From a virus, in the IMG/VR virus record IMGVR_UViG_3300046703_000335, positions 24,336 to 88,335 of that record: 64,000 bases of DNA. One strand, given 5' to 3'. Each line of letters begins with the position of its first letter. Position 1 is the stretch's first letter. The notes below the pieces were generated by a model, which did not search any database, was not told where the DNA came from, and was given only the letters and a program-made list of their open reading frames with translations. The position numbers were made by a program, and so were the translations under genes. Positions 5,253 through 61,908 of the stretch are shown here, piece by piece.

Positions 5253-5265
5253 ATTTATCCTTTAA

Positions 5266-9305: not shown

Positions 9306-9352
9306 ATAAAACCTCTAATTTTATTTAAATGTTATATTAATATACATGAAGC

Positions 9353-10162: not shown

Positions 10163-10184
10163 TGATACATCCTTTCGAATAGGT

Positions 10185-10454: not shown

Positions 10455-10463
10455 ACATTCCCC

Positions 10464-13424: not shown

Positions 13425-14222
13425 TTATAAATATTTGTCCAACCCTAAAATTGATTTTTTTTCTGATAAATCTTCTAATATTGGAACCTCTTCAACCCAT
13501 CGTTCAGTGTAACTTCGATCCTGTGATATAATTGGCATATCAAGATCAACTACCCACTTATTCCTGACAACACACCCAACCGGATAAGTAATCTTAAATG
13601 CTGATGTCCCTCTTTTATATGAAGTCTCTATATCATTCCAGTTGATACCCAATTGAAGCATTAACATATCCTGTTTTTGACTTCCATTTTTACCCATAAG
13701 TTGCTTATGTGAAAAATGTGCCATAGCCACTTGAGAGACTGAATTTTTTTCACAATCTCTTTCTCGCCAAATAAAATAGTTGGTAACTTCTTCCTTTGGG
13801 AGATTCCAGGCACGGGCGTCAAATATCGCAGGACCCTTTTTCTTGTATTGCTCTGGAAGATATGTCAAGCAAGCATGGTTAAACGCCGCAGTGCATATAG
13901 AAGCAGCCACGCTCTCAATCTTATTCGCCCTATTATCAAACCACGCCTCAGTACCTATACTTTGATAATCACACATTAATATGGATATCTCATCACTTTG
14001 ACAATATCCGAGTCTGGCACCCTCAATTTCACTACAGGTCTTTACCATAGCATAGTTCATGCACTTTTTTAGGTTACTATCAAACGGTCTAACTAAACCC
14101 CTTGTCCATGTATGAAATGCCTTTCCGTCAATTCTTAGCATAATGGGAATTCTGCGAACTAATAAACGAAATGCACGTTGCTCATAATCCTTCATGCGAT
14201 CCCCAAGAGAATCCTTACTCAT
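13425..14222 (-). CDS. Thg1-like protein (tRNA-His guanylyltransferase family, 3'-5' nucleotidyltransferase)
   Basis: N-terminus MKDYEQRAF..RIDGKAFHTW matches the Thg1/TLP signature (MKDYE .. R.DG.AFH). Confidence 0.7.
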   Translation of the reverse strand: MSKDSLGDRMKDYEQRAFRLLVRRIPIMLRIDGKAFHTWTRGLVRPFDSNLKKCMNYAMVKTCSEIEGARLGYCQSDEISILMCDYQSIGTEAWFDNRANKIESVAASICTAAFNHACLTYLPEQYKKKGPAIFDARAWNLPKEEVTNYFIWRERDCEKNSVSQVAMAHFSHKQLMGKNGSQKQDMLMLQLGINWNDIETSYKRGTSAFKITYPVGCVVRNKWVVDLDMPIISQDRSYTERWVEEVPILEDLSEKKSILGLDKYL

Positions 14223-19548: not shown

Positions 19549-20664
19549 TTAATTTTCTTCAAGAATTCTTTTTAATCGAGTAGAACACTCTACAGAATCC
19601 GGCAGGGTATTAAAGTTGGGACGAACTCTCCGGTGGATATTTTTCCATAGTTTAAGACTATTTCCCTTATGATAATACATAAGATCTGAGACAAGATCTG
19701 GATATCGCTCAGTTACCATAAAAAACAAAGTTTTATGGCTTATGTCCGCAGGAATATCTTTCATAACTTCCTCATAAGTTTCCTTAACCCTAATATAGTC
19801 ATTATGGTGGATATCGTATATCTGCCGATACAAGAGGTCTGTAAGCTCTCTAAACTCTTCGGGTACCTCTGCTATGAAACTACGGGGGATATCCGCTTTA
19901 TCGAAGTCCCAGGCACCCCAGAATGATAGTAGAGTCATATGTGATAGAATTCTATGAATTTTACAGTATTCTGATCCCTTAACCTTAATCTTAAGACCAT
20001 TGTGGAAAGTAATAACAAAACCCTCCTCAGTCGCCGGTAGAGTCTTACAATAAGCATATAACTCATCCAGGCTATTGAACTCTACAGCCTCTACCACAGT
20101 GGCTCCTATGCGCTTTCCTTCCTCTTTAAGGGAGGTGTAGGATATCTCTTCTCCGGTTTCATTATTGATGACACCTAAAAGTATCAAATCCTCTGTATCA
20201 CCATAGTCTATTACAATTTTATTTTCTGGATAGACCATCTCAAAAAGATATGTATGCCCTTTAAGCATTTCTGTTGACCTTATATGCTTCCGGAACCATA
20301 TAGTAGCCCACTGCGCCTGATCTGATAAGAAAGATCCCTTGGTCGCTATATAATCTTGACCTTCATATCTAAAGTAAATCGCTAAGCTACCGTCAATCTT
20401 CTTAAGGGAAATAAAAGGCTTCTTCGCCAAGTCACAAAGATCAATCTTACCCATAAGCTCGGAGGCATTAAAGAATTTCTTAAAGGAACGTGAAACCACC
20501 TCTCCAGTGATCCTATTAAATATGATACCCCGTGCAGCCATAGTGATATCATCCCAATGCCCGTCATATTGACATTCCCGTGAATAGCAAAAAAGAACAA
20601 GATCATTCCACTCAGTATGTCTGACATAAGGATGGTCATAAAATTTCTTAATATCAAAAGTCAT
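19549..20664 (-). CDS. ATP-dependent RNA ligase (Rnl-type KxDG nucleotidyltransferase)
   Basis: KKIDGSLAI motif I (KxDG). N-terminal segment and size resemble the T4 Rnl / PF09414 family. A separate NAD-dependent DNA ligase is present in this window. Confidence 0.5.
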   Translation of the reverse strand: MTFDIKKFYDHPYVRHTEWNDLVLFCYSRECQYDGHWDDITMAARGIIFNRITGEVVSRSFKKFFNASELMGKIDLCDLAKKPFISLKKIDGSLAIYFRYEGQDYIATKGSFLSDQAQWATIWFRKHIRSTEMLKGHTYLFEMVYPENKIVIDYGDTEDLILLGVINNETGEEISYTSLKEEGKRIGATVVEAVEFNSLDELYAYCKTLPATEEGFVITFHNGLKIKVKGSEYCKIHRILSHMTLLSFWGAWDFDKADIPRSFIAEVPEEFRELTDLLYRQIYDIHHNDYIRVKETYEEVMKDIPADISHKTLFFMVTERYPDLVSDLMYYHKGNSLKLWKNIHRRVRPNFNTLPDSVECSTRLKRILEEN

Positions 20665-27185: not shown

Positions 27186-27586
27186 TGGAGGAGAGGGGAG
27201 TTGAACCCCTGTGTCAAGTATGATCCCTATTAATCTCTACATGCTTAGTTTAATTTGCACTACCCCTCTGTAAATATCAATTAAACAAAATTTTTAACAG
27301 AGTGCATTAAGTAATTTCGGTCCCCTTCTCTATTATGCTTTTCGGGTACCCTACTTCGTGATCTTTTAAGAGATCGGATCCCACGATTGTCCGATACTCT
27401 TTGCTACCTTTAATTAGGCAGCGATTGAGCTTGCAACACCTAAACTGATATTATCAGCAAAGGCGAGAGCAAACTTAACAGCATAATCTTTTGCAATTAT
27501 ACTTTAACGGATGATTTACGAGGCCAACCGTTATCCTCAACATGCAATTAATACTTCACCTACCTGATCGAAACCAGTACTCCCCC
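27186..27586 (-). ncRNA. ssrA: tmRNA (ssrA), about 401 nt, one-piece
   Basis: Minus-strand 5' end GGGGGAGTACTGGTTTCGATCAGG resembles the E. coli tmRNA 5' end. An internal CGGTTGGCCTCGTAAA block matches the PK1 region. The 3' end ..CACAGGGGTTCAACTCCCCTCTCCTCC-A forms a T-arm plus acceptor. The acceptor pairs 7/7 with the 5' GGGGGAG, including a G3-U70 pair and an A discriminator, which are alanine identity elements. Candidate tag ORF: GCA AAA GAT ... GCT GCC TAA. Confidence 0.8.
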
Positions 27587-27698
27587 AAAACGTTCAAAGA
27601 ACACTTTTAATATACATTCATGAAAAACAGGACGCCCAATTATTTATAAATTAACTTCCTAATAGAATGTTAATTCCCTGCTTCTCTCAACCCATACC

Positions 27699-27782
27699 CG
27701 CGTGTATGTGACACACTTATGGATCTTTTTATAAATACTACATTCAATCGGTACATCCCCGCGTGTATGTGGCACACACCAA
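27699..27782. repeat. Two ~20-bp direct repeats (CCGCGTGTATGTGRCACAC) 64 bp apart, upstream of tmRNA
   Basis: cccgcgtgtatgtgacacac at 27699-27718 and cccgcgtgtatgtggcacac at 27763-27782. Each has an internal GTGT..ACAC dyad. Confidence 0.5.
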
Positions 27783-36573: not shown

Positions 36574-38136
36574 TTACCTAAAAGATCCACGAGAAATCAA
36601 AGGCGTTTCCATGATCTCGAAAACCAGGTCAAGCTTAGATTTACGAGATAAAAGAGGGATCAATCCCGGTAATGCATAATAATCATTACCTTCAGGGGTA
36701 TAGATATCATATTCAATACCCGCCCTCTTCAAGTTACTAGAAAAGGTATTATCCGCAGGTCCTATATGAATGATCACCACATTTGGACGAACATTAAATG
36801 TCTTTGCATACTGTTCGTACACTGTAGTAAACATAGGACTAGCATTTTCACCCTCATCCGTTATCACCACAATAGTTTCCACACTCTTTTTCTTTAACAA
36901 CAAATAATTAAGTGCACAACCCATCGAAGTTGACCCTCCGGCACGTATGGGTCTAAATGCATTCTCCCAGTCGGTCAAAGAAGTTCCTTTTGCCTCAATC
37001 ACTGCTGGAGTTGTATCAAATGCTACCACAGTAAGTTCTGCTATTGTAGCACCAGAAATCAATGCTGCGGTATTCTTACCAACTTCAATTGCTTTATCCA
37101 TTGATCCGGACCGGTCAACAAATACAGCGGTTGATACTGAAATCTGACCACTCTTTTTGACCTGAGCATCTGCTACTTTATCCAATTGTGCTAAAACATC
37201 TACATCAAGGATACGACCAGTTTTAGCAGCTGTTTTGGACTTAAGTGTCGACACATTCTTTGACTTTTCAGCCTTTTTCAATTTTTCCTGAATAAGTGCT
37301 TTTGTAGCTTCATTAGCCATAGCACCCTTCTCTTCAAGAGAAGCCATGTTATTAATGACTTCCATAGAAGACATGCTATTGATAAGAGCCACGAGTATAG
37401 TTGGAGTAATTTTATCGATCAACCCAATTGCGATCGTATATGGAATTTTATTTTCCACAATCATCTTTGCTGCATCAGCCGGTTCTGCTTCTGATATCTT
37501 TTTCAAGATAGTCAGCTTAGAGTCTTCTGGTATTTTCCCATCAAAAAGAATAGCTTGAGCTTGTGCTGAAGGTTTTACTTTAATTTTCTTGTAAAGGCTC
37601 TTCAAATCAGCTCGATTCTTCAAAGCGACTGTATCAAATCGATCCTTATCCGCTTCCAACCAACGCAAATAATTTTTGATTTCAGTTTCAAAAGAGGAAG
37701 TGGTATTTCTTTTCATACCTACAGTCTTCTCTTCGATCCGAACTTCATCGATTGACTTCTTATCGATCTTGATCTTTTTACCTGTCTTTATCCGAATCTT
37801 AACCTTTTTACCTCGGATAAAACCAAGTATTTTATTCTTCATGAAAACCGCATGTTTTCTGAAAAGAGCAAGACCGACTTCACGATTATCGATAAAGGGA
37901 TCCGTAATAAGCATGGCTGCAAAGATCTCGTTATGATCCCTGATCTCGCCCTTAGCGAGATACCAGCAAGCAAGATGCGCATAGAACAACGGATCATTAT
38001 CCCGAATATCCTCATGGATCTTTTTTAAAACGTCCGTATCACGATGAGGACAAGTCATGAATGAATTGAGCACCCTAACACGGATATCCCCTTCAACTAC
38101 AGGAGCTGCAGGGGGAATAACTCTACGAGTTGTCAT
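36574..38136 (-). CDS. Ro60/Rsr-like protein (TROVE domain plus C-terminal vWA domain)
   Basis: N-terminal DNDPLFYAHLACW resembles the conserved Ro60/Rsr block NDPALFALALC. C-terminal vWA MIDAS motif VFVDRSGSM. Length of 520 aa is typical of Ro60. Confidence 0.6.
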   Translation of the reverse strand: MTTRRVIPPAAPVVEGDIRVRVLNSFMTCPHRDTDVLKKIHEDIRDNDPLFYAHLACWYLAKGEIRDHNEIFAAMLITDPFIDNREVGLALFRKHAVFMKNKILGFIRGKKVKIRIKTGKKIKIDKKSIDEVRIEEKTVGMKRNTTSSFETEIKNYLRWLEADKDRFDTVALKNRADLKSLYKKIKVKPSAQAQAILFDGKIPEDSKLTILKKISEAEPADAAKMIVENKIPYTIAIGLIDKITPTILVALINSMSSMEVINNMASLEEKGAMANEATKALIQEKLKKAEKSKNVSTLKSKTAAKTGRILDVDVLAQLDKVADAQVKKSGQISVSTAVFVDRSGSMDKAIEVGKNTAALISGATIAELTVVAFDTTPAVIEAKGTSLTDWENAFRPIRAGGSTSMGCALNYLLLKKKSVETIVVITDEGENASPMFTTVYEQYAKTFNVRPNVVIIHIGPADNTFSSNLKRAGIEYDIYTPEGNDYYALPGLIPLLSRKSKLDLVFEIMETPLISRGSFR

Positions 38137-38510: not shown

Positions 38511-38822
38511 TTATTTACAAATTTTTAATCGCCATTGAACAAATATATTAAGTTTTGAATTATTGATATATAATGCCACATTATCAAATTCAGTTTCATA
38601 GAGAAATTCATGTATTTTATTACCATCACCATAAAAATTCTTAAGTAACCATCTTATTAACAATTCTTCTATATCCCATCCTTTAAGCTCTCTGAACTCC
38701 AATATCTTAATTGCTTTATGCACTACTTCTTCATAAAACTCAATAGAGCCCGTAGCACCCTTACGACCTTTAAGAATATTATGTAACACTAAACAATCAG
38801 TTATAAGATAAGTATTCTTCAT
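38511..38822 (-). CDS. Hypothetical small protein
   Basis: ORF only. Confidence 0.3.
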   Translation of the reverse strand: MKNTYLITDCLVLHNILKGRKGATGSIEFYEEVVHKAIKILEFRELKGWDIEELLIRWLLKNFYGDGNKIHEFLYETEFDNVALYINNSKLNIFVQWRLKICK

Positions 38823-38852
38823 ACTATAACTAATATACTTTTATAAAACGAG

Positions 38853-38902
38853 AATACAAAGTAAAAAAGAAACCCCGATAGAACTTTTTGCTCTACCGGG
38901 GT
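38853..38902. terminator. Bidirectional rho-independent terminator
   Basis: GAAACCCCG-16 nt-CGGGGTTTC perfect 9-bp stem, flanked by an A-run and a T-run. Confidence 0.65.
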
Positions 38903-39100
38903 TTCTTTTATGAAGATCGTAAGAAAAATCAATAAGAAGTAGAGCACCTTATGGGTGGAGCAGTTGGGTTACTTTGGGATACCCACTTATGGTATCCAAG
39001 AAACTTTTTTAATGCTGATGTTTTGTAACTTTTTCTCATATCCGTGCTATCCTAAAATATTTAAAAAATTACGCAGAAGTTAGGGATGCTAATTTTTTGG

Positions 39101-39173
39101 CTTCTAATGATGGACTTGAACCATCGACGCATTTCTTATAAGGAAATTGCCCTACCAACTGGGCTAATTAGAA
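39101..39173 (-). tRNA. tRNA, anticodon UAU (Ile, AUA codon). CCA encoded at 39098-39100.
   Basis: Minus strand TTCTAAT-TA-GCCC-AGTTGGTA-GGGC-A-ATTTC-CTTATAA-GAAAT-GCGTC-GATGG-TTCAAGT-CCATC-ATTAGAA-G-CCA. All stems pair perfectly. Confidence 0.75.
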
Positions 39174-39536
39174 AATGTAAGCAACCAAAGTAATTGCGTA
39201 ATTTTTATTATTGTTTGTTTCAATCCGCGCTTTTCAGCGACTATATAAAAATGAGCTAATATAAGAATCTCTACCTAAGTCGTTCGTACTATATGATGAC
39301 CAGATACCCATACTGGGCAGTGATCATCAAGTTTTTTTTACCCAAAAAAAATGTAAGTCCAAACTATAATGGTAAAAATTCTATTAATTCGTTTGTTCGT
39401 TTCAATCCACGCTTTTCAGCGACTGTACAAAAGTAAAAAAGTTGAAACTACAGAAGTCGTGCATGCTAGTCTGAGGGATTTGAACCCCCTACCTATTGAT
39501 TAGAAGTCAATTGCTCTACCAAATGAGCTAATGTAA
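39174..39536 (-). repeat. Degenerate tandem array of ~175-bp units, each starting (minus strand) with CTTACATT
   Basis: AATGTAAG on the plus strand at 39174-39181, 39346-39353 and 39529-39536. Conserved AGTCGCTGAAAAGCGYGGATTGAAAC segments at about 39214-39247 and 39394-39430, each carrying a CGCT-GAAA-AGCG tetraloop hairpin. Confidence 0.45.
39464..39536 (-). tRNA. tRNA-Arg(UCU)-like element whose 5' acceptor strand does not pair. Positions 1-8 are replaced by the CTTACATT unit motif. Possible pseudogene or repair substrate.
   Basis: Good D-arm GCTC-ATTTGGTA-GAGC, anticodon arm ATTGA-CTTCTAA-TCAAT, T-arm GGGGG-TTCAAAT-CCCTC. The 3' acceptor AGACTAG has no complementary 5' strand. Confidence 0.45.
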
Positions 39537-39679
39537 GCCTTCACTGTAATTGTAGTTTCAACCAAGTACCCTATTCATCAGGGTTACATCTTAATAATAC
39601 TAAATAATTTTATATTATGCAAATACTATTTTAAAATGAAATCCAATGGATATATAATATAGATCGTATTAAAATATTT

Positions 39680-40060
39680 TTATTCATCCTCGGATATTTT
39701 AATACTCGGGAATCTACTCCTTACTGCGCTATACACTTTTGCCTTGAGTTCCTTTAAAGAACCATCATACCATACAGGAACTGAAGAATATTGATTAACT
39801 CTGGATATGGCATTTCTAGCATGGGCAGCATCTGGAATAGGAAAATGATCTTTACCATCTTTTACTTTTGAGCTCTTATCAGAAAATATAGGAGCAGGTC
39901 GATTTGATCCTGCTGGAATATCTCCCGCCATCTTCTCGAGAGTATTTGAAACAACATCAATAGATTCAGCTTCACTGAATAACCCGTTTGCCTCAACACT
40001 ACTTGCTACATTATCAAGGCTCTCTATAATAGAAGCCAATCTTTCTTTAGGTGATGACAT
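39680..40060 (-). CDS. Hypothetical protein
   Basis: ORF only. Confidence 0.3.
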   Translation of the reverse strand: MSSPKERLASIIESLDNVASSVEANGLFSEAESIDVVSNTLEKMAGDIPAGSNRPAPIFSDKSSKVKDGKDHFPIPDAAHARNAISRVNQYSSVPVWYDGSLKELKAKVYSAVRSRFPSIKISEDE

Positions 40061-51595: not shown

Positions 51596-52224
51596 CTATC
51601 AAATTTCCTCTGAAGTTTTTGTTTGATAAATTTTACCATATTATCTGAGACTCCTAATATAGCTGCTACATCAGAAGAATTGCACCCAATCTTCTTACAA
51701 TCCAGAAAAGTAATCATCTGATTAGCGCTATTTCTTGATTCTGTATTTTTAACATAATCTTTAAATTCATTCAAATATTGATTAAATGTACTCTCCTCTT
51801 CTTCATCAAAAACCCGAGGAGTACAAGGGGAAAAGTCAATTTTGTAGGGTCCATTAAATGCTCCTATATGTTCCCAGACATCATCTGCATCAAAAATAGT
51901 TTGCATACCAATTCTTACTTTAGTTATGAAGTCATATTGCACCGAAACATTTTTCTTTGCCTTAACGGGAAGAAGCCAGCATAACAGGGTTGATATATAG
52001 GTATCAAAAGAACCTTTATCTTCTTTGTATAATTCAAGAGCTTTAGTTTGAATCATCCTAAGATAAAAATCTTGAAGGTGTTCCTGGATCAATTCACGAT
52101 CTCTGATCCCTGTTTTATATATAAAAAAATTTTGTAGTTGCTTACCATTTTTTTTCACAAACGATTTAACATCCCGGACGATTTCCATAAAAACCCCATA
52201 GTGTGATATGATATTTTTAGACAC
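51577..52224 (-). CDS. Sigma-70-family-like transcription factor
   Basis: Region-2-like ELIQEHLQDFYLRMI and C-terminal HTH NSSDVAAILGVSDNMVKFIKQK. Confidence 0.4.
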   Translation of the reverse strand: MSKNIISHYGVFMEIVRDVKSFVKKNGKQLQNFFIYKTGIRDRELIQEHLQDFYLRMIQTKALELYKEDKGSFDTYISTLLCWLLPVKAKKNVSVQYDFITKVRIGMQTIFDADDVWEHIGAFNGPYKIDFSPCTPRVFDEEEESTFNQYLNEFKDYVKNTESRNSANQMITFLDCKKIGCNSSDVAAILGVSDNMVKFIKQKLQRKFDRWKTLN

Positions 52225-55200
52225 TTAACATAAGACATAATGCCAAAAACGAATCTACAGAAAATTCTTCTGTAGATTTGTACAAAATTTCCCCATCCTT
52301 ATTCATAAGACAAAGTTTATTCCTGGGTCCTACAAATAAGTTATTTCCTGATCTCAGTACTTCCAAAATGAACTTTATTTTTTGAGCTGAAATAATATTT
52401 ATATCTATTGTGTAATTGAAAGAGCCATCTTTATCAATATTCTTTTCAATTTGTATGTCTTTACAAAAAGAAGTATCTATTTTTTCAGGTACTCGTCCAA
52501 GAATCTTAGGTACTTCCTTCCCAATATCCCTCTCCCCAACCACCGAATTCTGATAATAGCTATGTGCTTCATTTGTTGTTGACCCAGTAATACTGGAAGT
52601 TTTATTTATTTCTGAGTCTATTTCTTTTTTTTCCCCATTATTGATCAGATCATTTTCCAAGGTTGGTACTGTAATATCTGGTTTAACAGGTTCCTCAGGT
52701 TTAAGGGGCTTCTCAGGAAGACATTCAGAGGGTAATTCTGAAGATTGTAAAACAGATACTGGACTTGATACATCTGCCATTTTCGCTTCCATTTCTTTCC
52801 AATAATCATGATCTACATGAAAAGAGTCCCCATATTCGGCATCAACTTCAAGTGGGACTACCCACTTCAATTTATCTGTGATATCTCTAATTTTCATTAG
52901 TCTACATAATTCCGGAACAATCATATCCATCTTCTCTTCCCGTACCTCATAAAGCACTTCATCATGTACAGGAAGGAGAATTTTTACATCATCCTGAAGA
53001 TTATTATCATATATCCACTTATATACTCTCCACAAAGCAATTTTTATTACATCTGCGCCAGTATTTTTACTTATTATTCCTACTGAATCAAATCTATGAA
53101 GATCAGAATGCACCGCTAAAGTATAGGTATCTTCAATTTTATCTATTACAGTTTTTCGTTTTAATTTATAATGGTAGTAAATCTCTGATGGGAGCTCACA
53201 AGTATATTTCTCCATCAAAGATATCATCCCTGGTAAAGTCACAACTTTACCTGTATTGAGTTTACAAAAATATGCACAATCATTAGCATTTTTTCGATCA
53301 TATACAGAGTGCAAATTTGATCGGATAACTTCTCTTAAAAAGTTAGGCAAAATCATTTTATTAATAGTATTTCGCAGTTTCCATATCGTAGGAGGCAAAT
53401 CTAATAAATCTTCTACCTTTTTAAGATCTTGCCATTCCAATTTAAAATTTCCATTAGTGACAGATCTAACAATTGAAGATAATCCTAATGTCCAACCTAT
53501 AAGCTGAACATCCCGTAATAATGCTATATTAGGGGTATGGTACCCATATCTATTCTTTCTTTTTTTACACCCATCTGTATCAAAGTATCCTTGTAAGAAA
53601 GCTTTCCGCATAGCTACAGGTGCTTTATATATTACTTCAGGTATTCTCTTTCCTCGGGCATCAGCAGGTATATAGCCCAATTTTATAAATAAATCTACTA
53701 ATCCTTTTGAGTTTATCTGTACTTGATATGACTCCCCTTTAGCCGAATTAGTTTTCCTCATATTTGAAAGACATAAGCCAAGATCTTTCAAAGATTCCTC
53801 AATGGTAGGAAGATACTTTTTAATTTTTTCTGCACCCAGGCATAAAGTTAAGGACTGTCTTGAATCAGTTCTTATACCTCCATCTCCTATAATATAACCC
53901 ATCAAATAGCCAATAAAATCCCATTGTTCCTTAGTTTTTATACAAAAGGATTTTCCATTATGTACTTGAGACTCATAGGTATAATCCGCAGGATATTCAC
54001 CAAATTGTTTTATGGTAGGTATAGACACACATATCTCTGTATCTTCATTAAGATCACTAAAATGTCTAAACTCATAACCCTCTTTACCTACGACTAATAC
54101 TTCATGTCTTGTATCACAGTTTAAAACCATACCATTAGATAATTCTAATTGAGCAAGCTGTGCTTTACCTCTATTTATTACATCAAAGGTCTCCCAAGAA
54201 GTACCCGTCCAAATCTTTAATTTTCTTAATAACTCTATAGGTAGAATATAAAGTTCACCTATAGGTATATATCCTTTATTAGTTAGTACTCTCTCTTCCT
54301 TTGTCAAGCACCCTTGAATTGCTGAATTTATAGCGCATCTGTCACCTTTGGATTGTATACCTTTATCTGGTGAATTATAAAATTCTTCCAGGGGTCTTCT
54401 TCTTCCAAAAGCAGTCTTACTATATCCCCTCTTTCGGGATGCCGCCCATTCTCTTTTGATCCAGCTATTTAAACCTACATATTCTTTAAAAAAGTTAAGA
54501 ATCATTTTCTTGGCAGTCTCAAAAGGTATTTTTGCCTGTGCAGCAAAGCCCCCTGCGCCTCCTCCGTACATTGTCAAGAAGTTTACCGTTTTGCCAAGAG
54601 AGCGTTCTTTCTTTGTAATTTCAGTTTTACCTGTTATAATTTTACCTGTGATAGTATGAAGATCTCCTGTGCCATGTAAAAACTCTTGAACCCATTTTGG
54701 CTCTTTTGAAAAATTTGTGGCTATTCTAAGCTCTTCTCCACTATAGTCAATGGACACCATTTTGAATCCAAAATGAGCAATCATAGCTCTTCTCAAGTTT
54801 ACAGCGTAAGGGTTACTCTTATCATAGGTAGGAATGTTCTGACAGTTTACTCCACAATATCCATCAATTTCTAAACCTTGACCCCCGGACCCACTAAATC
54901 TACCGGTATCTGCCTGAACCTGATTAAGCTGAAATTTAACCTCATCATTTTCATCGGCGTTAGTCAGCCAATTATATAGATAAGTGCTTTGAATTTTAAC
55001 ATAGCCACGATAAGTCAAGATTAAATTAATGATCGGATTTTTAGTAGAAATCATCTCAAGTATTTCACTATTTGTCTGATAATGCCCAGTTTTTGTTTTT
55101 TCTGCTTTAGGAGGATAAGGTAATTTTAATTCATTAAAAAGTATGGAGCCAAGCTGCTGTGTGGAATTAATATCAAACTCATGTCCGACTATTGAGAAAA

Positions 55201-56065
55201 TCTCTTTTATTAACTTTGACATCATAATTTCTACTTCAGCATTAATCTTTATAAGATACTGCTTATCTATTTTTACTAAGTTGCGCTCCATTTCCATAGT
55301 GACAAAGAGACACCGTTTTTCTACCTTATAAATTGCCCACGGTCCTTCTTTTCCTGTAGGATCTATGGCATTAAGTTTACCTTTAAGATATAAATATAAT
55401 GCCATAGTATTCATTCCATCACCACCTCCATAATAAACTGCTTTCTGTGGTGGGACCAGATAAAATGCAACTACTCCTTTTTTTGTACCTTGTATTCCAA
55501 GATCGTCAATTTCAAGCTGAGGCCTATCAAGAAGTGCCCCAGAAAGATATTTCAAATTTTTTGTTTTTCTTGATGCATCCTCAATTGCTGCCATAAGATA
55601 TGTATCTTCATACATATCTTCATTAGTAAATTCCACTCCATGGGTTAATAATATTTGACCATCATATTTAAAGTTATGGAAAATAAGTACACAATTAGCA
55701 GCAAGTTTTTTTGTTTGTCGTATCATAAAATTTAATGATACATTAAATTCCTCAGCATGTTCATGAGCTACAGGGATATAGATACCTTCATCGGGATCGT
55801 GTGAAAGACATATTCCTACTATCTTTGCATGACAGCCATTATCTGCATCTTTACGGGTATTAAGGCTGTTAGTTTCAAGATCATATACGCATAATCCCTT
55901 CTGAACGCACTTATCGATATACTCTTCAATTTCTGTTTGTTTTGTAAGAAGTATGAAACGTTTTGTTTTCATCCAAGGACGAAGTTCAATAAGTTCTTTT
56001 ACTTTTATACTGGTAAAGTCGTCTAATAATGTCGTAGCTACCGCTATGTTATCTGATTTACTCAT
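52217..56065 (-). CDS. Family A DNA polymerase with 3'-5' exonuclease, interrupted by an intein
   Basis: Exo I VYDLETNSL. Motif A VSIDYSGEELR. Motif B KERSLGKTVNFLTMYG. Motif C LLPVHDEVLYEV. The extein junction INSAIQG | intein | TGADVIKIAL matches the PolA QG-TAADIIK region. Confidence 0.9.
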   Translation of the reverse strand: MSKSDNIAVATTLLDDFTSIKVKELIELRPWMKTKRFILLTKQTEIEEYIDKCVQKGLCVYDLETNSLNTRKDADNGCHAKIVGICLSHDPDEGIYIPVAHEHAEEFNVSLNFMIRQTKKLAANCVLIFHNFKYDGQILLTHGVEFTNEDMYEDTYLMAAIEDASRKTKNLKYLSGALLDRPQLEIDDLGIQGTKKGVVAFYLVPPQKAVYYGGGDGMNTMALYLYLKGKLNAIDPTGKEGPWAIYKVEKRCLFVTMEMERNLVKIDKQYLIKINAEVEIMMSKLIKEIFSIVGHEFDINSTQQLGSILFNELKLPYPPKAEKTKTGHYQTNSEILEMISTKNPIINLILTYRGYVKIQSTYLYNWLTNADENDEVKFQLNQVQADTGRFSGSGGQGLEIDGYCGVNCQNIPTYDKSNPYAVNLRRAMIAHFGFKMVSIDYSGEELRIATNFSKEPKWVQEFLHGTGDLHTITGKIITGKTEITKKERSLGKTVNFLTMYGGGAGGFAAQAKIPFETAKKMILNFFKEYVGLNSWIKREWAASRKRGYSKTAFGRRRPLEEFYNSPDKGIQSKGDRCAINSAIQGCLTKEERVLTNKGYIPIGELYILPIELLRKLKIWTGTSWETFDVINRGKAQLAQLELSNGMVLNCDTRHEVLVVGKEGYEFRHFSDLNEDTEICVSIPTIKQFGEYPADYTYESQVHNGKSFCIKTKEQWDFIGYLMGYIIGDGGIRTDSRQSLTLCLGAEKIKKYLPTIEESLKDLGLCLSNMRKTNSAKGESYQVQINSKGLVDLFIKLGYIPADARGKRIPEVIYKAPVAMRKAFLQGYFDTDGCKKRKNRYGYHTPNIALLRDVQLIGWTLGLSSIVRSVTNGNFKLEWQDLKKVEDLLDLPPTIWKLRNTINKMILPNFLREVIRSNLHSVYDRKNANDCAYFCKLNTGKVVTLPGMISLMEKYTCELPSEIYYHYKLKRKTVIDKIEDTYTLAVHSDLHRFDSVGIISKNTGADVIKIALWRVYKWIYDNNLQDDVKILLPVHDEVLYEVREEKMDMIVPELCRLMKIRDITDKLKWVVPLEVDAEYGDSFHVDHDYWKEMEAKMADVSSPVSVLQSSELPSECLPEKPLKPEEPVKPDITVPTLENDLINNGEKKEIDSEINKTSSITGSTTNEAHSYYQNSVVGERDIGKEVPKILGRVPEKIDTSFCKDIQIEKNIDKDGSFNYTIDINIISAQKIKFILEVLRSGNNLFVGPRNKLCLMNKDGEILYKSTEEFSVDSFLALCLMLSV
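53063..54310 (-). mobile_element. Intein (416 aa, protein residues 586-1001) with LAGLIDADG homing endonuclease, inserted in the polA finger/palm region
   Basis: N-terminal Cys (CLTKEERVLT). Two LAGLIDADG motifs (LMGYIIGDGG and LQGYFDTDG). C-terminal block G TYTLAVHSDLHRFDSVGIISKN ending in Asn, followed by Thr +1. Confidence 0.8.
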
Positions 56066-60702: not shown

Positions 60703-61908
60703 CTATGAAACTGCTCTTAGATCTGATGTCTCCAAAAGTCTTACACTTTCTCCACAGGCTTGAATTCCTCTCGAACTGAGAGTATCTATTCCGAAATCTT
60801 CTATATTTATTGATGCATTTAAATCTCTGTCTTCAATATGACCACATTCACAAATATAAATTCTATCCTCTAATTTTAAATCCTCCTTTATATTTCCACA
60901 TACCCTACAAAGTTTAGAACTTGGATAAAATCTATCTACGTCTATGATTTCACCACCATACCATGCAGTCTTATACAATGATTGACGCTTTATCTCATTG
61001 AATGAAGCATCAGCTAAAGCACCTGCAAGTTTATGGTTTTTCACCATACCTAAGACATTTAAATCCTCTAATGCAATGTATCTCGGCTTGGTTTTCGTCA
61101 AGATACTTGTCATCTTATGGATTGCATCTTTTCGTTGATTACTTATTCTACTATAAATTTTCTGTATTTTTAACTTAATCTTATATCTATTATTTGAGGA
61201 CCTTTTAGTTTTTTTATCAAATTTCTTTCTTGCTAAATTCTTTTGTGCATGAGCTAATCTTTTTTTTGATTTTCTTAAATACTTGTTATTTTTAAAAACT
61301 TGACCATTAGAACATGTAGCTAAATTTTTTATACCGACATCAATGCCCAAGACAGTTTCTAATTGATTTGTTATTTCAGGTATCTCTACCTCACAATTAA
61401 CAGAAACGAACCACTTGCCTGTTATTTTAGAAATAGTCAAAGAGTTATACTTAACATTTTCAGTAGGTATATACCCTTTTTCCTTTAACTTAACTATACC
61501 AATTTTAGCTAATTTAATTTTATCGATAGTAACATGCAAATTACTACTGTCTAAGTGGTAGGTAGGTATACTTTTATGCTTAGATTTAAATTTGGGAAAG
61601 CCAATCTTTTTTCCTTTTTTAAGTCCTCGAAAAAAGTTTTTAAAAGCTTTATCTAAATCTATCAAAGCTAATTGAGGAGCACACTTAGAAACTTCGTACA
61701 TCCAAGGAAATTCTTTTTTTTTGCGAGCACATAATGATTTATGTTGGTCTATAGCTGATAAAGATCTCTTTTCACTCTCGTATAGAGATATACGCTCCGA
61801 AAGACCTAAATTATAAGCAAAACGAGCTACACCGGCACTCTTCTCGAAAAGAGTACGTTGTTTGTTATTTGGTTTTATCTCAGTTTTATATGATCTATTT
61901 ATTATCAT
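60703..61908 (-). CDS. tnpB: IS200/IS605-family TnpB (OrfB) RNA-guided nuclease-like transposase accessory protein
   Basis: N-terminal YKTEIKPNNKQRTLFEKSAGVARFAYN. RuvC-I GIDVGIKNLA, RuvC-II ALEDLN, zinc finger CRVCGN .. CECGH, RuvC-III EDRDLNASINI. All catalytic residues intact. Confidence 0.8.
   Translation of the reverse strand: MIINRSYKTEIKPNNKQRTLFEKSAGVARFAYNLGLSERISLYESEKRSLSAIDQHKSLCARKKKEFPWMYEVSKCAPQLALIDLDKAFKNFFRGLKKGKKIGFPKFKSKHKSIPTYHLDSSNLHVTIDKIKLAKIGIVKLKEKGYIPTENVKYNSLTISKITGKWFVSVNCEVEIPEITNQLETVLGIDVGIKNLATCSNGQVFKNNKYLRKSKKRLAHAQKNLARKKFDKKTKRSSNNRYKIKLKIQKIYSRISNQRKDAIHKMTSILTKTKPRYIALEDLNVLGMVKNHKLAGALADASFNEIKRQSLYKTAWYGGEIIDVDRFYPSSKLCRVCGNIKEDLKLEDRIYICECGHIEDRDLNASINIEDFGIDTLSSRGIQACGESVRLLETSDLRAVS

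What the first reader, a model, noticed from the sequence alone, without database searches (positions are those of the whole stretch)
39174..39536. About 175-bp periodic array with conserved CTTACATT motif and a 5'-truncated tRNA-Arg(UCU)-like unit
Plus-strand AATGTAAG recurs at 39174, 39346 and 39529, about 175 bp apart. On the minus strand the motif CTTACATT directly abuts the 5' end of the canonical tRNA(UAU). In the Arg-like unit the same motif occupies tRNA positions 1-8. That element has perfect D, anticodon and T arms, but its 3' acceptor strand AGACTAG has no 5' partner. The middle unit is degenerate. Units also share AGTCGCTGAAAAGCGYGGATTGAAAC with a GAAA-tetraloop hairpin. This could be a decaying tandem tRNA array, a promoter or processing-site repeat, or a truncated tRNA that a Thg1-like enzyme completes by 3'-5' templated synthesis.
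Basis: seen in the sequence. Interest (0 to 1): 0.6.

Follow-up and report, generated by a model that had tools for sequence, protein, structure and literature searches.

The report
Phage Y-RNA cassettes beside Ro60 gene
The ~180-bp repeat is not a decaying tRNA array: it is three small structured RNAs (a tRNA look-alike with no acceptor stem, a double hairpin and a real tRNA), each held in the same conserved stem, next to a Ro60-like RNA-binding protein gene in a giant phage, so they are most likely that protein's "Y RNA" partners, a new variant of a known RNA-protein system.

Summary
All three AATGTAAG copies in the 64-kb window lie at 39174, 39350 and 39530, inside a genuine ~180-bp tandem triplication on the minus strand.

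Each unit is a cassette with four parts: a 12-bp leader/trailer helix whose sequence differs in every unit, a conserved internal loop (AUUACA / GACUUC), a short inner helix, and a GCUUACAUU junction.

- **Cargo 1:** a tRNA-like D/anticodon/T body with no acceptor stem.
- **Cargo 2:** a conserved double hairpin.
- **Cargo 3:** a true tRNA(UAU) with encoded CCA.

The architecture is kept with many compensatory changes in relatives, so it is not a pseudogene array.

A 520-aa ORF about 0.9 kb downstream on the same strand is a structural Ro60 (TROVE+vWFA) homolog. The same scaffold recurs beside this gene in distant huge phages, some with YrlA-type cargo. The best reading is a phage Y-RNA-like array.

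The linker hairpins (GTCGC…GCGYGGATTGAAAC) copy the constant ends of type I-C CRISPR repeats and are possible RNA anti-CRISPRs.

A Thg1-like gene does exist in the window, but the evidence does not favour 5' completion of the tRNA-like unit.

Verdict: a new variant of a known kind. Ro60 binding and function are inferred, not shown.

The parts
39594..39623 (-). Promoter-like site (TTTGCA-18 nt-TATTAT) in front of the array. The surrounding block ...AGTATTTGCAT...TAGTATTATTAAG is conserved in relatives.
   Evidence: Consensus scan. The conserved block is visible in the relatives' sequences. Function is inferred.
39553..39584 (-). 5' hairpin (ACCCTG-ATGAA-TAGGGT) followed by GGTTGAAAC. GTTGAAAC doubles as the start of the 5' arm of unit 1.
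   Evidence: Sequence and hairpin scan. Equivalent hairpins with different stems, followed by [GA]TTGA[AG]A[CT], precede unit 1 in most relatives (L011, L014-L016, L019, L021).
39441..39562 (-). Unit 1 is a Y-RNA-like cassette.
- Outer helix: GTTGAAACTACA (39562..39551) with TGTAGTTTCAAC (39452..39441).
- Internal loop: AUUACA / GACUUC.
- Inner helix: GUG..GCU with AGC..CAC.
- Junction motif: CTTACATT (39537..39530).
- Cargo: a tRNA-like D, anticodon (UCU) and T arms (39531..39472) with no acceptor stem.
   Evidence: Fold: -35.8 kcal/mol, z -3.8. On 8 orthologs, 98.8% of cells are paired and 13 pairs show compensatory change. Rfam tRNA matches model positions 7-64 only. CM R1 scores it 148.9 bits.
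39399..39423 (-). Linker element 1: GTCGCTGAAAAGCGTGGATTGAAAC, a 4-bp GAAA-tetraloop hairpin. It carries the constant 5' GTCGC and 3' GCGTGGATTGAAAC of type I-C CRISPR repeats. It is a candidate solitary repeat unit or RNA anti-CRISPR.
   Evidence: Rfam CRISPR-DR9 gives 14.4 bits, below threshold. The flanks are identical to real CRISPR arrays found in many phyla. 30-nt copies lie in the same context in L028.
39264..39382 (-). Unit 2 uses the same scaffold: outer helix AGAATTTTTACC with GGTAGAGATTCT (2 G-U pairs), and CTTACATT at 39357..39350. The cargo is a U/A hairpin plus a longer hairpin. It is not tRNA-like.
   Evidence: Fold: -36.6 kcal/mol, z -4.9. It is conserved in 7 loci, with 11 pairs showing compensatory change. 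CM R1 scores it 39.3 bits.
39249..39265 (-). CTTATATTAGCTCATTT is a 17-nt copy (16/17) of the start of the unit-1 cargo. It abuts linker element 2 and looks like a recombination scar.
   Evidence: the repeat finder family D8 and self-BLAST.
39217..39241 (-). Linker element 2: GTCGCTGAAAAGCGCGGATTGAAAC, a type I-C repeat-like hairpin.
   Evidence: Rfam CRISPR-DR9 gives 15.6 bits, below threshold.
39064..39206 (-). Unit 3 uses the same scaffold: outer helix AAAAATTACGCA with TGCGTAATTTTT, and CTTACATT at 39181..39174. It carries a complete tRNA(UAU) at 39173..39098, with acceptor stem, G73 and an encoded CCA.
   Evidence: ARAGORN. Rfam tRNA 62.8 bits. Fold z -3.8. The ortholog alignment shows covarying arms. 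CM R1 scores it 65.8 bits.
38865..39063 (-). 3' tail of the transcript: a conserved non-coding stretch of about 150 nt, then an intrinsic terminator (38909..38865). The tail is kept even in relative L001, which lacks the cassettes.
   Evidence: Alignment with L001. Terminator scan: 20-pair stem followed by a T run.
36574..38136 (-). A 520-aa Ro60-like protein (TROVE HEAT-repeat ring plus vWFA domain), two small ORFs downstream of the array on the same strand.
   Evidence: AlphaFold2 model: pLDDT 81, pTM 0.75. The top 13 Foldseek PDB hits are all Ro60/TROVE, full length, E 4.5e-11 to 5e-8. Pfam gives a weak VWA_2 hit. A profile search gives a weak collinear hit to phage phiLo Ro60. Synteny is conserved.
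13425..14222 (-). Context only: a Thg1-like protein (3'-5' nucleotidyl transferase), 25 kb away.
   Evidence: Pfam Thg1 E 6e-29 (101 bits) and Thg1C 30 bits.
19549..20664 (-). Context only: a T4 Rnl1-type RNA ligase, part of an RNA-repair gene set.
   Evidence: Pfam RNA_lig_T4_1, E 1.9e-21.

Best explanation
The region is a co-transcribed cluster of three Ro60-associated, Y-RNA-like cassettes of a huge (>=210 kb) phage. It is read on the minus strand, from a promoter near 39600 to the terminator at 38909..38865.

**Architecture.** In each cassette the 5' and 3' ends pair, forming a 12-bp closing helix, a conserved non-Watson-Crick internal loop, a short inner helix and a GCUUACAU junction. This is the stem-bulge-stem design of Y RNAs. 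A tRNA-derived or other cargo sits on top.
- Unit 1 carries a tRNA-like D/anticodon/T module in native order, with the stem in place of the acceptor arm. This is the topology described for Deinococcus Yrn1.
- Unit 2 carries a double hairpin.
- Unit 3 carries a complete tRNA.
- CTTACATT is the junction motif of this scaffold.

**Proposed mechanism.** By analogy with Ro60-Y RNA particles, the stem would bind the Ro60-like ring protein encoded 0.9 kb downstream. The tRNA-like module would then recruit or gate a partner, such as a nuclease or a tRNA-binding enzyme. The true tRNA would still be released by RNase P.

**Shown:**
- the repeat;
- the conserved, covarying structure;
- the Ro60 fold of the neighbouring protein;
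- the association of scaffold and gene across distant phages.

**Inferred:**
- physical binding to Ro60;
- the processing pathway;
- the biological role.
For: 1. **Covarying structure.** The outer helix is perfect in all three window units but has a different sequence in each. Over 47 units from 16 loci, 99.5% of 551 positions pair: 514 Watson-Crick, 34 G-U, 3 unpaired. There are 43 distinct 5' arms, and a mismatched-arm control pairs at only 48%. The G-U pairs mean the structure is specific to the sense-strand RNA.
2. **Unit 1 is structurally conserved.** Its orthologs keep the outer and inner helices and the D, anticodon and T arms. 98.8% of cells are paired and 13 pairs show compensatory change; sliding the 3' partners by 1-3 columns drops pairing to 33-45%. 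Unit 2 is likewise conserved.
3. **The neighbouring protein has the Ro60 fold.** The 520-aa ORF at 36574..38136(-) matches Ro60 over its full length. The top 13 PDB hits are all Ro60/TROVE and include phage phiLo Ro60, D. radiodurans Rsr, and Xenopus and human Ro60.
4. **Conserved synteny.** The gene order 126-aa ORF, RNA array, 103-aa ORF, 88-aa ORF, Ro60-like, 285-aa ORF is kept in every relative with enough sequence. The one relative without cassettes (L001) also shows no Ro60-like, 88-aa or 285-aa ORF in the 12-kb locus fetched, about 6 kb downstream of the array site.
5. **Association in distant phages.** 14 more distant Ro60-like loci (36-72% identity) were examined. In most, the same scaffold clusters within 4 kb upstream on the same strand: 45 detections (about 35 distinct units once double counts of one helix are removed) in 60 kb. 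Elsewhere there are 29 detections in 250 kb; these are shorter (mostly 10-bp), but include the opposite-strand array of L031. The covariance model built from unit 1 finds full-length matches there: L024 133 bits, L027 59, L026 57, L030 54, L029 50, L037 46. Ordinary tRNAs match only the body of the model. In the 64-kb window only the three units match.
6. **YrlA-type cargo in distant members.** Some carry the permuted T arm, closed acceptor-like hairpin and D arm of YrlA Y RNAs. One matches Rfam YrlA at 29.1 bits, E 4e-4.
7. **Agreement with the literature.** Bacterial and phage Y RNAs lie within 4 kb of Ro60 on the same strand and carry tRNA-like domains (PMC4201824). Thermus phage phiLo has two Y-RNA-like genes upstream of its Ro60 (PMC12135203). 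TROVE proteins with tRNA-like partners are noted in some jumbo phages (PMC7824862).
Against: - No window unit matches Rfam YrlA or Y_RNA, even at E<=10.
- The published Ro60-site motif GNCGAAN0-1G is absent in strict form. Unit 1 has AGUGAAGG, its orthologs in L019 and L021 have AGCGAAGG, and units 2 and 3 have nothing similar.
- The Ro60-like protein is only 11-15% identical to solved Ro60s, and Pfam TROVE does not detect it. Its RNA specificity is therefore unknown.
- A complete tRNA with CCA in the same stem (unit 3) is not a described Y-RNA feature. It would fit a plain processing stalk equally well.
- Three of the most distant Ro60-like loci (L033, L034, L036) show few or no scaffold units by the helix criterion.
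- The co-absence argument rests on a single genome (L001).
- No expression or binding data exist.
Confidence: 0.68

Rival explanations
1. This is an ordinary small-RNA/tRNA operon. The leader/trailer duplexes are RNase III-type processing stalks, like rRNA processing stems or T7 R-sites, that excise each cargo. The neighbouring Ro60-like gene is coincidental.
For: - Each stalk has a 12-bp lower stem, an internal loop of about 6x6 nt and an upper stem. This resembles phage T7 RNase III sites (from my own knowledge of those sites; folds).
- True tRNAs with encoded CCA sit in the same stalk in the window and in L011, L013, L016, L021, L024 and L030.
- The units are apparently co-transcribed between one promoter-like site and one terminator.
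Against: - The scaffold keeps conserved unpaired sequence (UUACA / GACUU, GCWUACAW) across AT-rich and GC-rich phages. This suggests a specific protein site rather than a generic dsRNA cut site.
- It carries YrlA-type and acceptor-less tRNA mimics that have no obvious need for excision.
- It tracks the Ro60-like gene over 36-100% protein identity, and in L001 the two appear to be absent together.
- The two readings are not mutually exclusive.
Confidence: 0.17
2. Sub-feature, and compatible with the main explanation. The linker hairpins GTCGCTGAAAAGCG[T/C]GGATTGAAAC are solitary mimics of type I-C CRISPR repeats (SRU/Racr-type RNA anti-CRISPRs). They would titrate Cas5d/Cascade of the host. They are expressed and liberated as part of the small-RNA operon.
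For: - The 5' GTCGC and the 3' GCG(T/C)GGATTGAAAC are identical to the constant ends of a repeat family. That family forms real CRISPR arrays (65-67-nt period, up to 88 copies) in many phyla.
- Papers on type I-C systems of Xanthomonas and Legionella hold the string GTGGATTGAAAC. This comes from a title and full-text hit only; the passages were not read.
- Both copies are the only CRISPR-family hits in an Rfam scan of the region (CRISPR-DR9, 15.6 and 14.4 bits).
- A distant phage (L028, Ro60-like 59% identical) has two 30-nt copies between its Y units, each followed by a similar tail of about 55 nt ending in a T run: GTCGCTCTTTGATAGAGCGTGGATTGAAAC and GTCACTCTTTTAGAGAGCGTGGATTGAAAC. The 14-nt 3' end is conserved far better than its surroundings.
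- Racrs, including a type I-C one, are established (PMC10651486).
- No type I cas gene appears among the PADLOC hits listed for the window ORFs. Only 25 of 73 matched families were shown, and 56 ORFs were scanned.
Against: - The Rfam scores are far below the gathering score of 45.
- The window copies are 25 nt with a 4-bp stem. That is shorter than every one of about 1,680 real repeats sampled (27-37 nt, mode 32).
- The elements are absent from some relatives (L013), and others carry a different hairpin family ending in GTTGAAAG (L014, L016).
- The host and its CRISPR type are unknown.
- TTGAAA could also act as a -35 box: one sigma-70-like match, TTGAAA-16-TAGAAT, lies before unit 2. The -10 part is not conserved in the other copies.
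Confidence: 0.4
3. Unit 1 is a 5'-truncated tRNA-Arg(UCU) whose acceptor 5' strand is rebuilt after transcription by the phage's Thg1-like 3'-5' polymerase, using AGACUAG as template.
For: - The window does encode a Thg1-like protein (13425..14222(-); Pfam Thg1 101 bits plus Thg1C) and a T4 Rnl1-type RNA ligase.
- The D, anticodon and T arms of unit 1 are canonical and under structural selection.
- Thg1-like proteins repair 5'-truncated tRNAs in vitro (established knowledge; mentioned for jumbo phages in PMC7824862).
Against: - The nucleotides that would be positions 71-73 pair with the leader in a conserved, covarying inner helix.
- The segment between the T stem and that helix is 3-6 nt long in different orthologs and has no conserved discriminator or CCA.
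- The 12-bp outer helix would be pointless for a precursor that is trimmed at both ends.
- The same UACAU junction precedes complete tRNAs and non-tRNA cargo.
- Acceptor-less units occur in other Ro60-like phage contigs, and none of those is among the 23 IMG/VR contigs with a close Thg1-like homolog. That scan finds only close relatives, so this point is weak.
- No nuclease is known that would create the required 5' end at position 8.
Confidence: 0.05
4. This is a decaying tandem tRNA gene array. Unit 1 is a pseudogene that lost its 5' end, unit 2 is a degenerate remnant, and the motif is a leftover from duplication.
For: - The units arose by tandem duplication.
- tRNA fragments and recombination scars are present: 39265..39249 in the window, and bare anticodon-arm and D-arm fragments in L016.
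Against: - The acceptor-less form is kept in all 8 orthologs examined, with compensatory changes in the D-flanking helices and in the anticodon and T stems. It is also kept in distant phages.
- Unit 2 is conserved with covariation.
- Near-identical copies come from three independent samples.
Confidence: 0.02

Closest known systems
YrlA-type bacterial and phage Y RNAs with Rsr/Ro60 (Salmonella, Mycobacterium smegmatis, mycobacteriophages; Chen et al. 2014, PMC4201824; Rfam RF02553)
   Same: - Small RNAs encoded within a few kb of a Ro60 ortholog on the same strand, often in several copies.
- The 5' and 3' ends pair into a stem with an internal loop.
- The distal module mimics tRNA.
- Distant members of the present family carry the YrlA-type permuted T arm, closed acceptor-like hairpin and D arm.
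   Different: - The window units do not match the YrlA covariance model.
- They lack the GNCGAAN0-1G motif in strict form.
- They have a different conserved junction (GCWUACAW) and loop (UUACA / GACUU).
- Unit 1 keeps the native tRNA order with a canonical 7-nt anticodon loop.
- One unit carries a complete, CCA-ended tRNA.
- The partner protein is so diverged that Pfam TROVE misses it.
Deinococcus radiodurans Yrn1 (Y RNA that tethers Rsr to PNPase)
   Same: As described in PMC4201824, Yrn1 can be drawn with D-like, anticodon-like and T arms in tRNA order. The 5'/3' stem then takes the place of the acceptor arm. This is the same topology as unit 1.
   Different: - Yrn1 has a 6-nt 'anticodon' loop and an incomplete D arm. 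Unit 1 has fully canonical D, anticodon and T arms.
- There is no sequence similarity.
- No PNPase link was tested here.
Thermus phage phiLo Ro60 with Yrl1/Yrl2 (PMC12135203; PDB 9KOP, 9L5Y)
   Same: - A phage-encoded Ro60 with Y-RNA-like genes immediately upstream.
- It is the best structural match of the window's 520-aa protein (Foldseek E 4.5e-11).
   Different: - Sequence identity is about 13%.
- The phiLo Yrls are described as stem-bulge-stem RNAs with a CGAA motif, not as tRNA-like cassettes.
- No tRNA cargo or CRISPR-repeat-like linkers are reported there.
Solitary repeat units / RNA anti-CRISPRs (Racr; Camara-Wilpert et al. 2023, PMC10651486), including RacrIC1
   Same: - A phage-borne, cas-less single copy of a CRISPR-repeat-like hairpin, downstream of a promoter.
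- The 3' 14 nt and the 5' 5 nt are identical to type I-C repeats.
   Different: - The hairpin is shortened to 4 bp plus GAAA (25 nt in total).
- The elements are embedded as linkers between Y-RNA/tRNA cassettes rather than next to acr genes.
- Inhibition is untested and the host is unknown.
Leader/trailer processing stems cut by RNase III (rRNA operons, phage T7 R-sites)
   Same: Long-range pairing of flanks around a stable RNA, with a lower stem, an internal loop and an upper stem.
   Different: - Here the unpaired loop sequences are conserved across very different phages.
- The element tracks a Ro60-like gene.
- The cargo includes tRNA mimics that cannot be matured into tRNAs.
Thg1-like protein (TLP) 5'-end repair or editing of tRNAs
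   Same: A Thg1-like gene is present in the same genome as a tRNA-shaped RNA that lacks a paired 5' acceptor strand.
   Different: Known editing replaces 1-3 terminal mismatched nucleotides of otherwise complete tRNAs. Here positions 3-6 are mismatched, the helix continues beyond position 1, and the arrangement is conserved as such.

Membership tests
Y RNA (Ro60 partner RNAs) | Encoded close to a Ro60/TROVE ortholog (within about 4 kb) on the same strand | tested here: met
   The array at 39590..39064(-) lies 0.9-1.5 kb upstream of the Ro60-fold ORF at 38136..36574(-). The same arrangement holds in the relatives and in most of the 14 distant loci.
Y RNA (Ro60 partner RNAs) | 5' and 3' ends base-pair into a stem interrupted by a conserved bulge or internal loop | tested here: met
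   The outer helix is 99.5% paired over 47 units with 43 different arm sequences. The conserved loop AUUACA / GACUUC and the inner helix covary.
Y RNA (Ro60 partner RNAs) | Ro60-binding sequence motif on the 5' strand (GGUCCGA in animals; GNCGAAN0-1G in YrlA) | tested here: not met
   Unit 1 has AGUGAAGG. Its orthologs in L019 and L021 have AGCGAAGG, which is 6 of 7. Units 2 and 3 have UUUGG-type strands. A different conserved motif, GCWUACAW, is present instead.
Y RNA (Ro60 partner RNAs) | Physical association with the Ro60 protein | not testable with these tools
   This needs RIP, EMSA or a structure.
YrlA (Rfam RF02553) | Match to the YrlA covariance model at or above the gathering score (69 bits), with a permuted T / acceptor-like / D module | tested here: not met
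   No YrlA hit in window 38700-39800, even at E<=10. Distant family members reach 29.1, 16.6 and 16.5 bits (L037) and do show the permuted module.
Ro60/TROVE protein (for the 520-aa ORF) | HEAT-repeat ring plus C-terminal vWFA domain, about 500-540 aa | tested here: met
   AF2 model with pLDDT 81. Full-length Foldseek matches to 13 Ro60 chains, TM 0.50-0.61, E down to 4.5e-11. VWA_2 at residues 338-428. The Pfam TROVE model itself was not matched.
tRNA | Cloverleaf with a 7-bp acceptor stem closing the 5' and 3' ends | tested here: not met
   This result is for unit 1. Rfam tRNA matches model positions 7-64 only, ARAGORN makes no call, and 3 of 7 acceptor pairs form. Unit 3 does meet the feature: ARAGORN calls tRNA(UAU), Rfam gives 62.8 bits, and CCA is encoded.
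Solitary CRISPR repeat unit / Racr (type I-C) | Sequence and hairpin similarity to the repeats of a CRISPR type | tested here: inconclusive
   The 5' GTCGC and the 3' GCG(T/C)GGATTGAAAC are identical to real arrays. However, the hairpin is only 4 bp, the total of 25 nt is shorter than all sampled repeats, and Rfam CRISPR-DR9 gives 15.6 and 14.4 bits against a gathering score of 45.
Solitary CRISPR repeat unit / Racr (type I-C) | Solitary, with no regular repeat-spacer array and no adjacent cas genes | tested here: met
   There are two copies 182 nt apart, separated by a Y cassette. No type I cas family appears among the PADLOC hits listed for 56 window ORFs; only the first 25 of 73 families were shown.
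Solitary CRISPR repeat unit / Racr (type I-C) | Inhibits the cognate CRISPR-Cas system, and the host carries that system | not testable with these tools
   The host is unknown. A functional assay is needed.
Thg1-like-dependent 5' tRNA completion | A Thg1-like enzyme encoded by the genome | tested here: met
   ORF 13425..14222(-): Pfam Thg1 101 bits and Thg1C 30 bits.
Thg1-like-dependent 5' tRNA completion | A substrate with a free, conserved 3' acceptor strand (7 nt plus discriminator plus CCA) to serve as template | tested here: not met
   The 3' segment is 3-6 nt long before it enters the conserved inner helix. No CCA is encoded, and the sequence and length vary among orthologs.
Integron attC / MITE (DNA-level cassette) | Conserved core sites (GTTRRRY / RYYYAAC) or conserved terminal inverted repeats | tested here: not met
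   The arm sequences differ in every unit and include G-U pairs that work only in sense-strand RNA.

The most novel reading that the evidence does not exclude
The locus is an RNA-only counter-defence island built on a Ro60 platform.

- The acceptor-less tRNA-like modules act as anticodon-loop baits. Because they cannot be charged, they cannot disturb translation. Displayed on Ro60, they would intercept or sense host tRNA-targeting defences such as anticodon nucleases.
- Their anticodons turn over quickly to track host specificity. Unit 1 has UCU, AUU, UAU or an unread variant loop (CGUUUAA in L019) in otherwise conserved orthologs. Two near-identical contigs differ at 3 of 3 unit-1 positions inside the anticodon loop.
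- The orthologous true tRNA in the same scaffold likewise switches among UAU, UAA, UCA and UAC.
- The true tRNAs would replace depleted species.
- The type I-C repeat mimics in the linkers would blunt CRISPR.
- The phage's Thg1-like enzyme and Rnl1 ligase would repair damaged tRNA ends.
Probability: 0.12. Interest if true: 0.85.

Novelty: new variant of a known kind. Interest (0 to 1): 0.62.

Why it matters
**Why the kind is known but this variant is useful.** Ro60-Y RNA particles are known from animals, bacteria and a few phages, yet what their tRNA-like modules do is still unclear.

**What this locus adds.**
- It belongs to a large clade of huge phages. The search for the Ro60-like protein returned 480 homologs at E<=0.001, and the 120 listed are at least 56% identical, on contigs up to 470 kb.
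- In that clade a very divergent Ro60 is accompanied by modular arrays.
- One common stem in these arrays presents permuted YrlA-type mimics, native-order acceptor-less tRNA mimics, and even complete tRNAs.

**What becomes testable.**
- What the stem recognises.
- Whether Ro60 handles pre-tRNAs.
- Why the anticodon loop of a non-chargeable tRNA mimic evolves so fast.

**Practical points.**
- Annotation pipelines miss both partners. Pfam TROVE does not detect the protein, and Rfam sees only a truncated tRNA.
- The CRISPR I-C repeat mimics in the linkers suggest that small-RNA operons of phages may bundle several RNA-based counter-defences.

Tried and rejected
**Searches that led nowhere**
- An exact-pattern search for the linker element in IMG/VR found nothing.
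- A blastn search of 3 kb against INPHARED phages matched only generic tRNA similarity.
- PHROGs gave nothing for the neighbouring ORFs.
- A conserved 25-mer of the 3' tail found only the L001 contig.
- A genome-wide scan for a hairpin followed by TTGA[AG]A was too noisy to be informative.

**CTTACATT/TTTGG as a Bacteroidota-type promoter (TAnnTTTG) for each unit.** Rejected. Unit 1 lacks TTTGG. The TTTGG strand is the covarying 5' strand of the inner helix. The 5' arm upstream of it must be on the same RNA as the 3' arm.

**GATTGAAAC as a -35 box.** There is one sigma-70-like match before unit 2, but no conserved -10 in the other copies or in the relatives.

**Integron attC, MITE or another DNA-level cassette.** Rejected. 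The arm sequences are not conserved, and the G-U pairs are strand-specific.

**Real mini-CRISPR array.** Rejected. The "spacers" are 156-nt paralogous cassettes, not unique 32-37-nt spacers.

**Retron ncRNA or archaeal bulge-helix-bulge.** No reverse transcriptase is present among the neighbouring ORFs (Pfam found none). The tmRNA gene points to a bacterial host.

**Link to CreT toxins, which sequester rare AGA and AUA tRNAs.** Considered because of the UCU and UAU anticodons. No evidence was found, and the anticodons vary among relatives.

**Co-occurrence of the Thg1-like gene with Ro60-like contigs.** None was found. The scan detects only close homologs.


Full report
**1. Observation**

AATGTAAG occurs on the plus strand exactly three times in the 64-kb window, at 39174, 39350 and 39530. 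About four copies are expected anywhere in the window. Three on one strand within 364 nt has a rough chance of 2e-5.

Every ORF near the site is on the minus strand, and the RNA genes are too, so I read the region on the minus strand. Self-BLAST aligns 39554->39348 with 39374->39172 (218 columns, 65% identity, E 1.4e-14). This is a real tandem triplication with a period of about 180 nt.

- ARAGORN and Rfam call a complete tRNA(UAU) at 39173..39098, with CTTACATT directly upstream.
- The Arg(UCU)-like element matches Rfam tRNA only over model positions 7-64 (39531..39472, 51.3 bits). ARAGORN does not call it.
- The shared GTCGCTGAAAAGCG[T/C]GGATTGAAAC is present twice.

The one correction is that the middle unit is not a degenerate tRNA.

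**2. Anatomy of a unit**

Each of the three units is closed by a perfect 12-bp helix between its leader and trailer. The sequence differs in each unit:

| Unit | 5' arm | 3' arm |
|---|---|---|
| 1 | GTTGAAACTACA | TGTAGTTTCAAC |
| 2 | AGAATTTTTACC | GGTAGAGATTCT |
| 3 | AAAAATTACGCA | TGCGTAATTTTT |

These are the only three such arrangements in the window.

Inside the helix come four further elements:
- a conserved internal loop, 5'-AUUACA / 5'-GACUUC, made of U-U, A-C and A-G oppositions;
- a short inner helix;
- the cargo.

All three units fold this way, with z-scores of -3.8 to -4.9.

| Unit | Cargo |
|---|---|
| 1 | D arm, anticodon arm (CUUCUAA loop) and T arm, but no acceptor stem |
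| 2 | A U/A hairpin plus a longer hairpin |
| 3 | A whole tRNA with acceptor stem, G73 and encoded CCA |

In unit 1 the UACA/GACU opposition occurs a second time, where the base of the acceptor stem would be (read directly from the sequence).

A promoter-like site (TTTGCA-18-TATTAT, 39623..39594) and a strong terminator (38909..38865) bracket the array and a conserved tail of about 150 nt.

**3. Relatives**

The window matches no cultured phage. Identical copies come from three sequencing runs. The upstream protein occurs on a 210,408-bp contig, so this is a huge phage.

I fetched orthologous loci through homologs of the flanking proteins: L009, L011-L023. All of them hold two to four cassettes with the same scaffold, and CTTA[CT]ATT occurs one to three times in each contig that reaches into the array. 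In every unit 11-12 of 12 outer-helix positions pair, although the arm sequences differ.

- **Unit 1.** On eight orthologs, 98.8% of cells are paired and 13 pairs carry compensatory changes. Sliding the 3' partners by 1-3 columns lowers pairing to 33-45%.
- **Unit 2.** It is conserved in seven loci, with 11 compensatory pairs.
- **All units.** Over 47 units the outer helix is 99.5% paired, against 48% for mismatched arms. It includes 34 G-U pairs, which would be A-C mismatches on the other strand.

The structure is therefore an RNA structure of the sense strand. The acceptor-less tRNA-like unit is a maintained design, not a decaying gene.

**4. The neighbour**

Two small ORFs downstream, on the same strand, lies a 520-aa ORF (38136..36574). 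It is conserved next to the array in every relative with enough sequence.

- Pfam sees only a weak VWA domain.
- A profile of 29 homologs gives a weak collinear hit to the Ro60 of Thermus phage phiLo.
- An AlphaFold2 model (pLDDT 81) matches 13 Ro60/TROVE chains over its full length as its top hits. These include phiLo Ro60, Deinococcus Rsr, and Xenopus and human Ro60, with E 4.5e-11 to 5e-8 and TM 0.50-0.61. Isolated vWFA domains follow.

The protein is a divergent Ro60. The one relative that lacks all cassettes (L001) also shows no Ro60-like gene and neither of its two flanking ORFs within the 12-kb locus I fetched, about 6 kb downstream of the array site.

**5. Generality**

The Ro60-like protein has 480 homologs at E<=0.001. 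The 120 listed are at least 56% identical, on contigs up to 470 kb. I fetched 14 further loci from IMG/VR at 36-72% identity.

- Most have tRNA or tRNA-like genes just upstream.
- A helix-plus-ACUY search gives 45 detections (about 35 distinct units) in the 60 kb upstream on the same strand. It gives 29 detections in 250 kb elsewhere; these are mostly shorter, but four of them are the array of L031 on the opposite strand.
- The scaffold consensus holds in AT-rich and GC-rich phages alike: arm | YYWAAC..; inner helix; GCWUACAW; cargo..RACUY | arm.
- A covariance model built from unit 1 finds full-length matches next to Ro60-like genes in nine loci, from 133 down to 30 bits. Ordinary tRNAs hit only the tRNA-body part of the model. 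In the window only the three units match.

Cargo in these distant units falls into three classes:
- native-order acceptor-less tRNA mimics;
- true tRNAs;
- permuted modules with a T arm, a closed acceptor-like hairpin and a D arm.

The permuted module is the hallmark of YrlA Y RNAs. One such unit matches Rfam YrlA at 29.1 bits, E 4e-4.

**6. Interpretation**

Bacterial and phage Y RNAs are encoded within about 4 kb of Ro60 on the same strand. They pair their ends into a stem and carry a tRNA-like domain. Deinococcus Yrn1 has that domain in native order, with the stem replacing the acceptor arm (PMC4201824). Phage phiLo has two Y-RNA-like genes upstream of its Ro60 (PMC12135203). TROVE proteins with tRNA-like partners are noted in some jumbo phages (PMC7824862).

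The array is therefore best explained as a set of Y-RNA-like partner RNAs of the phage Ro60, and CTTACATT is the junction motif of their common stem.

- **Shown:** the structure, its conservation, the fold of the neighbouring protein, and the association of the two.
- **Inferred:** that the stem binds this Ro60, and what the particle does.

It is not a member of YrlA by the Rfam model. It also lacks the GNCGAAN0-1G motif in strict form. I therefore file it as a new variant. A plain RNase III-type processing-stalk function is the main rival, and it may coexist with the Ro60 reading.

**7. The linker hairpin**

GTCGC-TGAAAA-GCG(T/C)GGATTGAAAC shares its first 5 and last 14 nt with a repeat family. 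A genome scan shows that this family forms real CRISPR arrays, with a 65-67-nt period and up to 88 copies, in many phyla. Papers on type I-C systems hold the 3' string (the passages were not read).

- Rfam's CRISPR-DR9 model hits both copies, but far below threshold.
- The window copies are 25 nt, shorter than all ~1,680 sampled repeats.
- A distant phage (L028) has two 30-nt copies between its Y units, each followed by a similar tail of about 55 nt ending in a T run.

This fits solitary repeat units or RNA anti-CRISPRs (PMC10651486). It remains a candidate only, at about 0.4. Some relatives lack the element or carry another hairpin family ending in GTTGAAAG.

**8. The Thg1 idea**

The window does encode a Thg1-like protein (13425..14222) and a T4 Rnl1-type RNA ligase. 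Even so, four points argue against 5' completion of unit 1:
- Its 3' side is engaged in the conserved inner helix, varies in length and has no CCA.
- The long closing helix would be pointless for a precursor that is trimmed at both ends.
- The same junction precedes complete tRNAs.
- No other Ro60-like contig is among the 23 contigs with a close Thg1-like homolog.

I give this reading about 0.05.

**9. Anticodon turnover**

Orthologous cargos keep their bodies but change anticodon.

| Cargo | Anticodons seen |
|---|---|
| Unit 3 (true tRNA) | UAU, UAA, UCA, UAC |
| Unit 1 (tRNA mimic) | UCU, AUU, UAU, or a variant loop (CGUUUAA in L019) that I did not assign |
| A further tRNA cassette | UAG or CUG |

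Two near-identical contigs (14 differences in 3,026 nt) differ in unit 1 only at loop positions 32, 34 and 35. For a molecule that cannot be charged, this points to a function that reads the anticodon loop. That is the basis of the more speculative bait or counter-defence reading.

**10. Verdict**

The finding is real. It is a phage Y-RNA-like cassette array beside a divergent Ro60 gene, with CRISPR-repeat-like linkers. It is a new variant of a known kind and of moderate to high interest.

Noticed in passing
window 27186-27586 (-), and 27680-27779 (-): A phage-encoded tmRNA (Rfam 133 bits; tag AKDYAVKFALAFADNISLGVASSIAA). It is preceded by two copies of a hairpin element, GTGTGT(GC)CACATACAC-GCGGG(G/T)ATG..., followed by GATTGAATG or GGTTGAGAGAAG. 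These resemble the hairpin plus TTGA[AG]A linkers of the array and the degenerate copy after unit 3 (about 39045..39025).
   Followed up: partly
window 13425-14222 (-) and 19549-20664 (-): A Thg1-like 3'-5' nucleotidyl transferase (Pfam Thg1 101 bits plus Thg1C) and a T4 Rnl1-type RNA ligase. Together with Ro60 they form an RNA/tRNA-repair gene set.
   Followed up: partly
window 60703-61908 (-): A TnpB/IS605 OrfB-type protein (HTH_OrfB_IS605, OrfB_IS605 and Cas12f1-like TNB domains). A window ORF, presumably this one, gives the strong PADLOC Cas12f-model hits (E 1.6e-69; the aggregated scan did not say which ORF). I did not look for its omega RNA.
   Followed up: no
L011 2219-2294, L013 3183-3258, L014/L016/L021 unit 3; L019 4312-4385 vs L021 4207-4280: Orthologous true tRNAs in the same scaffold keep their body but carry different anticodons (UAU, UAA, UCA, UAC; UAG vs CUG). 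The UCA version in L013 would read UGA. L019 has a 6-nt anticodon loop.
   Followed up: partly
L014 vs L015, positions 2833, 2835, 2836: Two near-identical contigs (14 differences in 3,026 nt) differ in unit 1 only at anticodon-loop positions 32, 34 and 35 (AUU vs UCU). This is a local burst of change in a non-chargeable tRNA mimic.
   Followed up: partly
L016 1100-1215 and 1515-1610: Five copies of TTTTCCTCAC-NNNN-GTGGGGGTTGAAAG-type hairpins. Two pairs of them flank short tRNA fragments of 31-40 nt: a bare anticodon arm with CAU, and a D arm. The repeat-spacer geometry is reminiscent of a mini CRISPR array whose 'spacers' are tRNA pieces.
   Followed up: no
window 38910-39063 (-); L001 6500-6660; L024 4063-4270: A conserved non-coding tail of about 150 nt lies between the last cassette and the terminator. 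It is kept even in L001, which lacks the cassettes. The terminator loop contains GGTAGAGCAA, the same 10-mer as in the D arm of unit 1.
   Followed up: no
L028 3109-3294: A HEARO RNA (Rfam 90.2 bits, above gathering) lies about 0.4 kb upstream of the Y-like units of this distant Ro60-like phage.
   Followed up: no
window 52217-56065 (-): A 1,282-aa DNA polymerase ORF. An internal stretch (residues about 704-866) matches LAGLIDADG/homing-endonuclease families, so it is probably an intein or an inserted endonuclease.
   Followed up: no
window, unidentified ORF among the 56 scanned: One ORF matches the PADLOC model 'Csx1 (found elsewhere)' at E 2e-42. Others match SNF2-type ZorD/DpdE/DrmD models and an E1-E2 (ThiF) model. 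I did not determine which ORF gives the Csx1-like hit.
   Followed up: no
window 485-11225 (-): A run of glycosyltransferase, methyltransferase (FkbM) and polysaccharide pyruvyl transferase genes. This is unusual ballast for a phage and suggests modification of surface polysaccharide or of DNA.
   Followed up: no
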